IMG/VR virus record: IMGVR_UViG_3300027804_000038
Span: 192,001 to 256,000 of that record
Length of the DNA: 64,000 nucleotides
Strand: one strand, 5' to 3'
DNA from: a virus
Lineage: Duplodnaviria; Caudoviricetes
The notes under the pieces are model-generated. The model had not been told where the DNA came from and searched no databases. It saw only the letters and a program-made list of their open reading frames with translations. Each line of letters begins with the position of its first letter. The first letter of the stretch is position 1. The position numbers were made by a program, and so were the translations under genes. Positions 55,247-55,330 of the stretch are shown here, piece by piece.

Positions 55247-55330
55247 ATGAAGTAGTAAGGATAAGAGTTACTTCGCAAATTACTTTTAATGATTCAAGCA
55301 AAAACAAACTCTTTCCAACGTTCTCTTCAT
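55247..55330 (+). ncRNA. Y-like RNA 4 carrying only a Lys(TTT)-like anticodon stem-loop
   Basis: ATGAAG/CTTCAT stem; AATTA-CTTTTAA-TGATT. Confidence 0.7.

What the first reader, a model, noticed from the sequence alone, without database searches (positions are those of the whole stretch)
55247..55330. Minimal scaffold presenting only a tRNA-Lys(UUU) anticodon stem-loop, a candidate anticodon-nuclease decoy
The 84-nt fourth RNA carries just AATTA-CTTTTAA-TGATT; its loop is identical to that of the real tRNA-Lys at 41855. Established: tRNA-Lys(UUU) is the target of PrrC and of PARIS AriB. Inference: a stripped-down competitive substrate that titrates such defence nucleases.
Basis: partly seen in the sequence, partly recalled or inferred. 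Interest (0 to 1): 0.7.

Follow-up and report, generated by a model that had tools for sequence, protein, structure and literature searches.

The report
Minimal phage Y RNA, lysine anticodon
A giant freshwater phage encodes, beside its own Ro60 RNA-binding protein, an 85-base RNA that is only a conserved docking stem carrying a copy of the lysine-tRNA anticodon hairpin; the same design recurs in other phages, so it is probably functional, but its proposed role as a decoy for tRNA-cutting defence enzymes is untested.

Summary
Window 55247-55331 is the fourth and smallest of four Y-RNA-like genes, 2.4 kb downstream of a phage TROVE/Ro60 gene. It scores 68.8 bits, the best in the window, against a covariance model of the shared stem. 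Its only cargo is AAUUA-CUUUUAA-UGAUU (55278-55294), whose loop is identical to that of the phage's own tRNA-Lys(UUU).

This exceeds chance. Only 1.6% of shuffles give such a hairpin. Anticodon-arm-like hairpins are enriched across the family, and complete IMG/VR pattern scans found the CUUUUAA loop on four other stems in four more phage contigs, with A31-U39 invariant. One of these is a full permuted tRNA mimic in the same position, just 5' of tRNA-Tyr, so Y4 looks like that RNA minus its tRNA elbow.

Against a general role: 41 of 45 minimal relatives have no such hairpin, the closest relatives (Ro60 97% identical) lack Y4, and anticodon triplets across the family are very diverse.

Best reading: a Ro60-docked RNA with a retained tRNA-Lys anticodon-arm mimic. 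The anticodon-nuclease decoy idea stays possible (about 0.15) but untested. Hughes et al. 2020 floated competitive inhibition for YrlA.

Other notes of this scan describe the same array in this genome; I saw none on other DNA.

The parts
55247..55331 (+). Y4: minimal Y-RNA-like gene (handle plus one hairpin)
   Evidence: Covariance model R1 scores 68.8 bits, E 6e-12, full length. MFE fold. No ORF, tRNA or Rfam call here.
55248..55252 (+). Lower stem of the handle, 5' strand; pairs with 55326-55330
   Evidence: The equivalent alignment columns 2-6/88-92 show compensatory changes in 24 homologs.
55253..55258 (+). UAGUAA: conserved, partly unpaired motif of the handle (family consensus UAG-Y-R-A)
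   Evidence: T7, A8, G9 and A12 are invariant in the 24-sequence alignment A2.
55263..55269 (+). Upper stem of the handle, 5' strand; pairs with 55307-55313
   Evidence: Pair probabilities are 0.84-1.0. A strain variant changes A55263>U together with U55313>G, turning A-U into U-G.
55267..55275 (+). GUUACUUCG: invariant family motif at the top of the handle
   Evidence: Invariant in A2 and present in all four window copies.
55278..55294 (+). Anticodon-arm mimic AAUUA-CUUUUAA-UGAUU: loop 55283-55289, anticodon-like UUU 55285-55287, A31-U39 equivalent 55282/55290
   Evidence: The loop is identical to that of tRNA-Lys at 41855. The same loop sits on other stems in L338, L342, L341 and L344.
55295..55306 (+). 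A-rich single-stranded linker (CAAGCAAAAACA), a family-wide feature 5' of the 3' strand
   Evidence: Consensus in A2 and R1. Three substitutions in the X18 variant fall here or next to it, at 55304, 55305 and 55307.
55307..55331 (+). 3' strand of the handle, with the conserved UUCUC opposite UAGUAA
55168..55243 (+). tRNA-Glu(UUC), 3 nt upstream of Y4; its 3' processing would set the 5' end of Y4 (inferred)
   Evidence: ARAGORN and Rfam tRNA.
55337..55422 (+). tRNA-Tyr(GUA), 5 nt downstream of Y4; RNase P cleavage would set the 3' end of Y4 (inferred). A tRNA-Tyr also directly follows the Lys-arm RNA of L341.
54564..54705 (+). Y1: sibling with T arm, closed acceptor, D arm and anticodon-like arm ACGGU-CUCAUAA-ACUGU
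   Evidence: R1 scores 46.6 bits. Arm listed.
54713..54843 (+). Y2: sibling holding a tRNA in normal order, with loop AUCAGGA
   Evidence: R1 scores 34.7 bits. ARAGORN/Rfam tRNA at 54740-54815.
54852..54984 (+). Y3: sibling with anticodon-like arm UUUUU-CUGGAAC-AAAAA, then T arm, closed acceptor and D arm
   Evidence: R1 scores 38 bits. Arm listed.
51194..52819 (+). Phage Ro60/TROVE protein (541 aa), the presumed partner of the handle
   Evidence: Pfam TROVE 25.9 bits (cut-off 23) plus Ro60 vWA. PHROG 850 RNA-binding protein, E 7.5e-33. PDB TROVE proteins 9l5y and 9kop at E 9e-11 and Ro60 1yvp.
41855..41931 (+). The phage's genuine tRNA-Lys(UUU), with the canonical loop CUUUUAA
55714..55732 (+). 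Terminator-like hairpin with a U run, probably ending the Y-RNA/tRNA transcription unit

Best explanation
Y4 is a real small-RNA gene. It is the smallest member of a phage family of Y-RNA-like RNAs that travels with a phage Ro60/TROVE gene.

It is made as part of a Y-RNA/tRNA array transcript. It is probably released as an RNA of about 85-93 nt when RNase Z/P process the flanking tRNA-Glu and tRNA-Tyr (inferred). Its long bulged stem (UAGUAA ... GUUACUUCG / A-rich ... UUCUC) is the handle, which most likely docks Ro60 (inferred from genetic linkage and from the Y RNA paradigm).

Its only cargo is a 17-nt hairpin that copies the tRNA-Lys(UUU) anticodon arm: 5 bp, a 7-nt loop C32-U33-UUU-A37-A38, and an A31-U39 closing pair. 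The hairpin is most likely a retained, selected piece of a larger permuted tRNA mimic that lost its T, acceptor and D parts.

I think the arm works as the effector module of the Y RNA. It would be bound by a protein that reads the tRNA-Lys anticodon arm. That protein would then be tethered to Ro60 or kept away from real tRNA-Lys. Which protein this is remains unknown: an anticodon nuclease, LysRS or an anticodon-loop modification enzyme.
For: The handle is real.
- 12 of 13 predicted pairs show compensatory changes in 24 homologs.
- The model finds exactly the four window copies and none elsewhere in the 294-kb phage.

The handle is linked to Ro60.
- Among 155 loci fetched by a DNA pattern alone, 19 of 36 with model hits also hold a TROVE gene (26-72% identical). 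None of the 119 loci without model hits does (Fisher P 8e-15).

The hairpin is not chance.
- Shuffles give it 1.6% of the time, or 0.5% with the full loop signature.
- In an unbiased sample, 4 of 45 minimal members have a strict anticodon-arm-like hairpin against 0.50 expected. For large members it is 36 of 63 against 5.1.

The Lys loop recurs.
- Complete IMG/VR scans for handle+CUNNNAA and handle+UUUU found CUUUUAA closed by GAA/UUC (L338, minimal), CAAA/UUUG (L342, minimal) and AACA/UGUU (L341 and L344, large).
- A31-U39 is invariant in all of them.
- UUU is the commonest triplet: 5 of the 16 closed CUNNNAA loops, two of which lie in doubtful elements (L049, L076), and 3 of 8 in minimal RNAs.
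- Among U4-containing loops of minimal RNAs, only two types recur. Both are canonical anticodon loops: CUUUUAA three times and the Gln-type UUUUGGU three times.

Y4 looks derived from a larger mimic.
- The L341 RNA sits directly 5' of tRNA-Tyr, as Y4 does.
- It aligns with Y4 apart from a roughly 70-nt T/acceptor/D insert.

Strain variation fits a constrained arm.
- An RNA-library contig with 13 differences over 242 nt has a compensatory pair change in the handle and none in the arm.

Presence in RNA libraries.
- Contigs from metatranscriptomes of two studies cover Y4.
Against: - 41 of 45 minimal homologs have no such hairpin, and their apical parts are unrelated. The handle alone may therefore suffice for function.
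- The closest relatives (Ro60 97% identical, L127 and L138) lack Y4 and the whole tRNA-Leu/Thr/Glu/Tyr block.
- No other IMG/VR contig carries the Y4 handle sequence itself.
- The hairpin is all A-U/G-U and thermodynamically marginal on its own.
- The absence of changes in the arm in strain variants is not significant (about 0.26 by chance).
- The recurrences were found by searching for the loop. The comparison among triplets is fair, but the total size of the family is unknown.
- Binding to Ro60, expression in infected cells and the RNA ends are all unshown. RNA-library contigs can come from carried-over DNA.
Confidence: 0.5

Rival explanations
1. Handle-only Y RNA of the YrlB type. Y4 acts purely through its Ro60-binding stem, for example by gating or stabilising Ro60. 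The apical hairpin would be a tolerated relic of a decayed tRNA mimic, or a simple spacer, and would not be read as an anticodon arm.
For: - Most minimal family members carry short, unrelated, A-rich apical sequences without any hairpin.
- Chen et al. [quoted passage not shown]
- Y4 is absent from the nearest relatives.
- The hairpin is weak in isolation.
Against: - A relic should lose its pairing. Instead the same 7-nt loop is kept on four other stems with A31-U39 invariant.
- Anticodon-arm-like hairpins occur about eight times more often than expected in minimal members.
- The loops that recur are exactly canonical anticodon loops.
Confidence: 0.3
2. One reading: the bare tRNA-Lys arm is a competitive substrate or inhibitor that titrates tRNA-Lys-directed anticodon nucleases (PrrC, RloC or PARIS AriB type) during infection, perhaps with Ro60 protecting or recycling it.
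For: - PrrC reads mainly the anticodon stem-loop and cleaves synthetic ASL analogs (PMC1950546).
- PARIS AriB cleaves tRNA-Lys (PMC11455837).
- Hughes et al. 2020 (PMC7790460) proposed that the YrlA tRNA-like domain might competitively inhibit an anticodon nuclease.
- Here the loop, A31-U39 and the 5-bp/7-nt geometry are kept in five RNAs.
- UUU is the commonest triplet among handle-proximal arms.
- Presence and absence among close relatives fits an accessory arms-race gene.
- The phage also encodes an RNA ligase.
Against: - There is no direct evidence.
- The host and its defences are unknown.
- The PrrC cues include base modifications, mnm5s2U34 and t6A37 (PMC1950546). A 17-nt arm without a tRNA body may not acquire them (my inference).
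- An arm identical to the substrate would be consumed by a catalytic nuclease rather than inhibit it.
- The known phage answers are repair enzymes or resistant replacement tRNAs (PMC11455837).
- The phage's own tRNA-Lys keeps the canonical loop.
- Bare arms in the family carry at least eight different triplets and large members many more, which does not fit one nuclease specificity.
Confidence: 0.15
3. A U-rich loop as a generic single-strand binding site. The loop would bind a nuclease or chaperone with S1/KH-type domains, as PNPase does in the Rsr-Y RNA-PNPase complex. The resemblance to tRNA-Lys would arise only because that tRNA has the most U-rich anticodon loop.
For: - In D. radiodurans the Y RNA tethers Ro60 to PNPase (PMC4201824, PMC7790460).
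- YrlB-type RNAs have small pyrimidine-rich loops (PMC4201824).
- UUU is favoured in this AT-rich DNA.
Against: - Among U4-containing loops next to the handle, variants such as AUUUUUA, UAUUUUU and CUUUUUAAU are singletons.
- The exact heptamers CUUUUAA and UUUUGGU each recur three times in minimal RNAs, always as 7-nt loops.
- Bare arms with non-U-rich triplets also exist: GCA, GAA, UAG and GUA.
Confidence: 0.08
4. Not an independent RNA: only a structured spacer or processing signal in the tRNA array.
For: - It lies 3 nt after tRNA-Glu and 5 nt before tRNA-Tyr.
- One RNA-library contig joins a tRNA-Glu-like end to a tRNA-Tyr-like start with 20 other letters in place of Y4, but with only 20 matching letters on one side.
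Against: - It has the best-scoring copy of a handle that is linked to Ro60 genes across deep divergence, and that often stands away from tRNAs.
Confidence: 0.04

Closest known systems
YrlB / Yrn2-type small Y RNAs (S. Typhimurium YrlB, M. smegmatis YrlB, D. radiodurans Yrn2; Chen et al. 2014, PMC4201824)
   Same: - A second, smaller Ro60-linked RNA encoded beside tRNA-like Y RNAs.
- A long hairpin formed by the 5' and 3' ends, with a small pyrimidine-rich apical loop.
- Processed from a common precursor (shown for M. smegmatis).
   Different: - No sequence relation.
- The published Ro60 motif GNCGAAN0-1G is absent. This family has UAGUAA and GUUACUUCG instead.
- The apical loop here is an exact tRNA-Lys anticodon loop on a 5-bp stem, which has not been described for YrlB.
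YrlA (Rfam RF02553; structure in Wang et al. 2018, bioRxiv 10.1101/312249)
   Same: - Bacterial and phage Y RNAs that join a Ro60-binding stem to a tRNA mimic.
- Y1 and Y3 of this array follow that plan.
   Different: - YrlA keeps the tRNA elbow (T and D arms) and lacks the anticodon loop. Y4 is the reverse, with an anticodon arm and no elbow.
- Rfam YrlA does not match Y4. Its best matches in the region score 16 bits against a cut-off of 69.
Phage T5 tRNA-Lys that neutralises PARIS, and phage tRNAs with anticodon-loop changes (Burman et al. 2024 and van den Berg et al., as summarised in PMC11455837)
   Same: A phage-encoded RNA with a tRNA-Lys anticodon arm in a phage rich in tRNA genes, so a possible link to tRNA-Lys-cleaving defences.
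   Different: - Those are complete, functional tRNAs that replace the cleaved host tRNA and escape cleavage through arm substitutions.
- Y4 cannot be charged or decode, and it keeps the canonical loop.
Synthetic tRNA-Lys anticodon stem-loop analogs used as PrrC substrates (PMC1950546)
   Same: A 17-nt arm with a CUUUUAA-type loop and an A31-U/Psi39 closing pair, which is enough for recognition and cleavage by PrrC in vitro.
   Different: - Those analogs carried the natural base modifications.
- Y4 is a natural gene, its modification state is unknown, and the arm is mounted on a Ro60-type handle.

Membership tests
Y RNA (Ro60-associated non-coding RNA, general definition) | Encoded close to a Ro60/TROVE gene | tested here: met
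   The TROVE ORF at 51194-52819 lies 2.4 kb upstream on the same strand. Family-wide linkage is 19 of 36 against 0 of 119 loci.
Y RNA (Ro60-associated non-coding RNA, general definition) | The 5' and 3' ends pair into a long stem with a conserved bulged or internal-loop region | tested here: met
   12 of 13 pairs have compensatory changes, and the conserved unpaired UAGUAA lies opposite UUCUC.
Y RNA (Ro60-associated non-coding RNA, general definition) | Published Ro60-contact motif (metazoan GGUCCGA; bacterial GNCGAAN0-1G, PMC4201824) | tested here: not met
   Neither motif is present in 55247-55331. The family has other invariant motifs.
Y RNA (Ro60-associated non-coding RNA, general definition) | Physical binding to Ro60 and Ro60-dependent accumulation | not testable with these tools
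   This needs immunoprecipitation or a knock-out.
YrlA (Rfam RF02553) | Match to the Rfam covariance model at the gathering score | tested here: not met
   There is no match on Y4. The nearby weak matches score 16.3 and 15.9 bits against a cut-off of 69.
YrlA (Rfam RF02553) | tRNA-like elbow: T arm, D arm and closed acceptor stem | tested here: not met
   Y4 has none of these between 55276 and 55306. Y1 and Y3 have them.
YrlB-type small Y RNA (descriptive class, PMC4201824) | [quoted passage not shown] | tested here: met
   Fold; the loop is CUUUUAA; siblings Y1-Y3 lie 260-680 nt upstream. The class has no sequence model, so this is a match of form only.
tRNA (RF00005) | Cloverleaf recognised by ARAGORN or the Rfam tRNA model | tested here: not met
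   No call on 55247-55331 even at E up to 10.
tRNA-Lys(UUU) anticodon arm (as a structural mimic) | 5-bp stem, 7-nt loop, C32, U33, U34-U35-U36, A37, A38 and an A31-U39 closing pair | tested here: met
   55278-55294. The loop and closing pair are identical to the phage tRNA-Lys.
Anticodon-nuclease decoy or inhibitor (no established family) | Binding to, cleavage by, or inhibition of a tRNA-Lys anticodon nuclease | not testable with these tools
   This needs enzyme assays or defence-rescue assays.

The most novel reading that the evidence does not exclude
Phage Ro60 systems carry a class of handle RNAs whose only cargo is a bare anticodon arm: Lys UUU, Gln UUG, Pro UGG, Tyr GUA and others. These arms would be sponges, competitive inhibitors or sensors for anticodon-loop-directed defence nucleases, with Ro60 holding or protecting them. 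That would give Y-RNA tRNA mimicry a counter-defence function. It would turn the competitive-inhibitor suggestion of Hughes et al. 2020 into a concrete natural example.
Probability: 0.15. Interest if true: 0.85.

Novelty: new variant of a known kind. Interest (0 to 1): 0.58.

Why it matters
Bacterial and phage Y RNAs are known to mimic tRNA. What the mimic is for has been open since 2014. The described YrlA RNAs keep the tRNA elbow and lack the anticodon loop.

Y4 and its relatives show the opposite design: a Ro60-type handle that keeps only the anticodon arm, with exact anticodon-loop sequences recurring on different stems in different phages. That narrows the search for partners to proteins that read anticodon arms, namely anticodon nucleases, class II LysRS-type anticodon-binding domains and loop-modifying enzymes.

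It also offers an 85-nt natural RNA on which the competitive-inhibitor idea for Y RNAs can be tested with point mutants. If the arm turns out to be irrelevant, Y4 is simply the YrlB-like minimal member of a new phage Y-RNA family.

Tried and rejected
- **Rfam** at the gathering score and at E up to 10 gave no family for Y4.
- **BLAST of the region against 50,697 phage records** matched only tRNAs.
- **Y4 orthologs through the Ro60 protein.** The two IMG/VR and 14 metagenome relatives either lack Y4 or end too early. The 97%-identical ones have Y1, an extra Y RNA, Y2', Y3 and then a different tRNA.
- **Exact search for the Y4 handle strand** with one free position in IMG/VR: no match outside the own record.
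- **Strain-level contigs found through the two neighbouring proteins** are 99.6-100% identical over the array, so they say nothing about conservation.
- **Homologs of the 160-aa upstream protein** at 72-91% identity lie in other contexts without any Y-like RNA.
None of the 80 loci returned matched the model, so I cannot say whether the family exists in cells.
My first two partner-finding scripts were too strict and were replaced.
- **The pattern RGTTACTTCGCAAATT** gave mostly chance hits. It did lead to L154, L159, L160 and L174.
- **RtcB and T4 Rnl1 families** were not found in the phage. The Rnl1 control did not ring anywhere, so that answer is void.
- **RNA-library depth and uncovered bins** are not used as evidence of expression level or of absence.
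- **A permuted tRNA that matures into a working tRNA-Lys** was rejected for Y4, because there is no acceptor, T or D part to mature.
- **The alternative 4-bp/tetraloop register** of the hairpin was rejected, with pair probability 0.03.

Full report
**What is there**

The window is part of a 293,850-bp IMG/VR virus record from fresh water. It holds 25 tRNA genes and a GOLLD RNA.

At 51194-52819 lies a 541-aa TROVE/Ro60 protein. The evidence is Pfam TROVE plus the Ro60 vWA domain, PHROG 850, and PDB TROVE and Ro60 chains.

About 1.7 kb downstream a non-coding array starts. It contains four repeats of one scaffold interleaved with tRNAs: Y1 54564-54705, Y2 54713-54843, Y3 54852-54984, then tRNA-Leu, tRNA-Thr and tRNA-Glu, then Y4 55247-55331, then tRNA-Tyr. 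A further 290 nt follow, ending in a terminator-like hairpin at 55714-55732.

The finding's coordinates and letters are exact. Y4 consists of:
- a 5' strand carrying UAGUAA
- the invariant GUUACUUCG
- the hairpin AAUUA-CUUUUAA-UGAUU (55278-55294)
- an A-rich linker
- the complementary 3' strand

The loop equals that of the phage's own tRNA-Lys(UUU) at 41855, which reads UCGCA-CUUUUAA-UGCGA.

**The scaffold is a conserved RNA handle linked to Ro60**

I collected relatives in two ways: through the Ro60 protein and through a DNA pattern of the two conserved motifs.

Twenty-four minimal members align cleanly. RNAalifold predicts the terminal and upper stems, and 12 of 13 pairs show compensatory changes.

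A covariance model built from them (R1) finds exactly four matches in the window. Y4 is the best, at 68.8 bits. There are no matches elsewhere in the phage. The model gave about 108 distinct matches in the loci fetched by then.

Among 155 loci fetched by DNA pattern alone:
- 19 of the 36 with model matches also hold a TROVE gene, at 26-72% identity to the window's
- none of the 119 without model matches does (P 8e-15)

This is strong genetic evidence that the handle is the RNA partner of these phage Ro60 proteins. Binding itself is not shown.

The handle is not Rfam YrlA (16 bits against a cut-off of 69). It also lacks the published GNCGAAN0-1G motif (PMC4201824).

**Is the Lys hairpin more than chance?**

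Three lines of evidence say yes.

First, shuffles:
- Only 1.6% of dinucleotide shuffles of the apical 40 nt give a 5-bp/7-nt hairpin with U33 and R37.
- Only 0.5% also have the Y32/A37/A38 signature.

Second, such hairpins are a family trait:
- 36 of 63 large members have one (5.1 expected), mostly with CUNNNAA loops.
- 4 of 45 minimal members have one (0.50 expected).
- All four window RNAs have one: CAU in Y1, CAG in Y2, GGA in Y3 and UUU in Y4. They sit in three different tRNA topologies plus the bare form.
- Published YrlA lacks the anticodon loop (bioRxiv 10.1101/312249), so this is a real difference from the known family.

Third, the same loop recurs elsewhere.

| Locus | Size class | Stem closing the loop |
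|---|---|---|
| L338:1705-1777 | minimal | GAA/UUC |
| L342:3895-3978 | minimal | CAAA/UUUG |
| L341:4381-4520 | large | AACA/UGUU |
| L344:1737-1874 | large | AACA/UGUU |

- The closing A31-U39 pair is invariant, while the pairs below it change in a compensatory way.
- These phages have Ro60 proteins only 36% (L342) and 57% (L341) identical to the window's. Each also has a normal tRNA-Lys(UUU).
- UUU is the commonest triplet among the closed CUNNNAA loops next to the handle: 5 of 16, or 4 of 15 if L341 and L344 count as one lineage. Two of the 16 lie in doubtful elements (L049, L076). In minimal RNAs it is 3 of 8.
- By base composition I estimate about 4% per loop. That figure is my estimate, not a tool result.
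- Among U4-containing loops of minimal RNAs, only two heptamers recur, each three times: CUUUUAA and the Gln-type UUUUGGU (L414, L418, L450). The latter matches the loop type of the phage's tRNA-Gln. Other U-rich loops are singletons.
- This argues for anticodon-loop mimicry rather than a generic U-rich loop.

**Where Y4 comes from**

The L341 RNA has the order handle, Lys arm, T arm, closed acceptor, D arm, handle. This is the Y3 topology. It lies directly 5' of tRNA-Tyr, as Y4 does.

In the alignment Y4 matches it through the arm and again from the A-rich linker onwards. It lacks only the roughly 70-nt elbow part. Y4 therefore looks like a deletion derivative that kept the arm.

Bare arms also occur with other triplets:

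| Triplet (loop) | Loci |
|---|---|
| Gln, CUUUGAA | L061 |
| Pro, UGG | L123/L159, L081 |
| Cys | L352 |
| Leu | L398 |
| Phe | L349 |
| AUU | L351 |

A conserved tRNA-shaped element also carries a Tyr GUA arm, with stem covariation across L005, L135, L174 and L134.

**Evidence against a general or essential role**

- Forty-one of 45 minimal homologs have no such hairpin, and their apical parts are short, A-rich and unrelated.
- The closest relatives (L126, L127 and L138, Ro60 97% identical) have Y1, an additional Y RNA, Y2' and Y3, but neither Y4 nor the surrounding tRNA block.
- No other IMG/VR contig holds the Y4 handle sequence.
- Within orthologous groups of large members the triplet varies freely while CU...AA stays. 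The Y1 type, for example, carries CAU, UAU, UGA, UCC or GCA. Selection seems to act on loop shape more than on a particular anticodon.
- The Y4 hairpin is all A-U/G-U and +2.1 kcal/mol alone, although its pair probabilities are 0.7-0.8 in the full RNA and its siblings' arms are similar.

**Expression and strain variation**

- Contigs from metatranscriptome libraries of two studies cover Y4. One is an identical 173-nt contig spanning 55260-55432 (X16). The other is a 437-nt variant contig, of which 55199-55440 lies on the stretch (X18).
- DNA carry-over cannot be excluded, and contigs show no RNA ends.
- The X18 variant differs at 13 of 242 positions. In Y4 it has A55263>U together with U55313>G, so a handle pair goes from A-U to U-G. 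It has three changes in or next to the A-rich linker (55304, 55305, 55307) and none in 55270-55303.
- An estuary DNA contig (X10) has one change, at 55314. Zero changes in the 17-nt arm is not significant on these numbers (about 0.26).
- Contigs from several samples hold the array at 99.6-100% identity, four of them identical over its whole length.

**How it most likely works**

Shown:
- a conserved, covarying handle
- linkage of the handle to Ro60 genes
- a Lys-type anticodon arm that recurs on different stems

Inferred:
- transcription as one array unit, with release by RNase Z/P at the flanking tRNAs
- docking of the handle on the phage Ro60
- the arm acting as the effector module, as in the established picture of Y RNAs tethering Ro60 to another protein (PMC4201824, PMC7790460)

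A bare arm can only be read by proteins that recognise anticodon stem-loops. Anticodon nucleases qualify: PrrC takes its main cues from the stem-loop and cleaves ASL analogs (PMC1950546). So do LysRS-type anticodon-binding domains and loop-modifying enzymes; that last point is my own knowledge, not tested here.

A related suggestion, YrlA as a competitive inhibitor of an SOS-induced anticodon nuclease, is already in print (PMC7790460). I give the decoy about 0.15, for these reasons:
- Nothing here identifies a nuclease.
- An unmodified substrate-like arm may be a poor ligand, or may simply be consumed.
- The known phage answers are repair or resistant tRNAs (PMC11455837).
- Triplets in the family are very diverse.

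The phage does encode an RNA ligase at G000:C1:264731-265324 but no RtcB. That is weak context only.

**Verdict**

The structural reading (minimal scaffold, Lys arm only) is supported and extended. The function is open.

In kind, this is a new variant of the Y RNA/YrlB idea, not a new category.

Other notes of this scan on the same genome describe the array and its permuted members. I reached the same reading independently before opening them.

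Noticed in passing
L005:3226-3352, L135:3888-4030, L174:5105-5235, L134:1700-1860: A conserved tRNA-shaped element. It has a 7-bp acceptor stem (GGGGAAG/CUUCCCC) ending in ACCA. The Ro60-type handle is closed at its lower end and sits where the D arm would be. A Tyr-type arm (UCAAA-CUGUAAA-UUUGA, with covariation between loci) is followed by a small tetraloop hairpin in the T-arm position. This is a further topology of handle plus tRNA parts.
   Followed up: partly
window 55423-55713: About 290 nt of non-coding sequence lie between tRNA-Tyr and the terminator-like hairpin. It contains several G+C-rich hairpins and has no Rfam match above threshold. RNA-library contigs (X16, X18) reach only its first bases, up to 55440, where the laid stretch ended. 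It could be another structured RNA of the same transcription unit.
   Followed up: no
window 54512-54557 and about 31916-31961: The leader just upstream of Y1 is repeated at 85% identity over 46 nt about 480 nt upstream of the GOLLD RNA (32442-32857). This suggests a shared promoter or leader for the two non-coding RNA clusters. The leader contains TACCTTTG, which fits the Bacteroidota -7 promoter motif TAnnTTTG. That motif is from my memory and was not tested.
   Followed up: no
window 54766-54782 versus L127:3076-3092: The tRNA embedded in Y2 has loop AUCAGGA (CAG) in the window and AUUAGGA (UAG) in the relative whose Ro60 is 97% identical. Both are Leu triplets, on a body with a short variable loop that is unlike bacterial tRNA-Leu.
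   Followed up: no
L127:2862-3022 and L127:3165-3235: The closest relatives carry an extra Y-like RNA between Y1 and Y2 (40.7 bits). They also have a separate roughly 70-nt hairpin without the handle motifs between Y2' and Y3. Array content changes quickly between near-identical phages.
   Followed up: no
L154:1486-1617(-), L106:1603-1733, L056:4335-4476: Some family members carry anticodon-like loops that would read stop codons: CUUCAAA and AUUCAGA (UCA), and CUUUAAA (UUA).
   Followed up: no
window 55236/55342 (RNA run X18): One 1141-nt contig joins a tRNA-Glu-like end to a tRNA-Tyr-like start, with 20 other letters in place of the 105 nt that hold Y4. It may be a relative without Y4 or an unrelated organism, because only 20 letters match on one side.
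   Followed up: no
G000:C1:264731-265324 (outside the window): A 385-aa ORF matches the RNA ligase family PF09414 (55.7 bits) and PHROG RNA ligases. No RtcB was found in the phage.
   Followed up: partly
window 53093-54467: Two ORFs (284 aa and 160 aa, the latter PHROG 3754 of unknown function) lie between Ro60 and the array. They are absent at that place in the 97%-identical relatives. Homologs of the 160-aa protein are common in freshwater phage contigs but lie next to ClpP or CYTH genes, not next to Y RNAs.
   Followed up: partly
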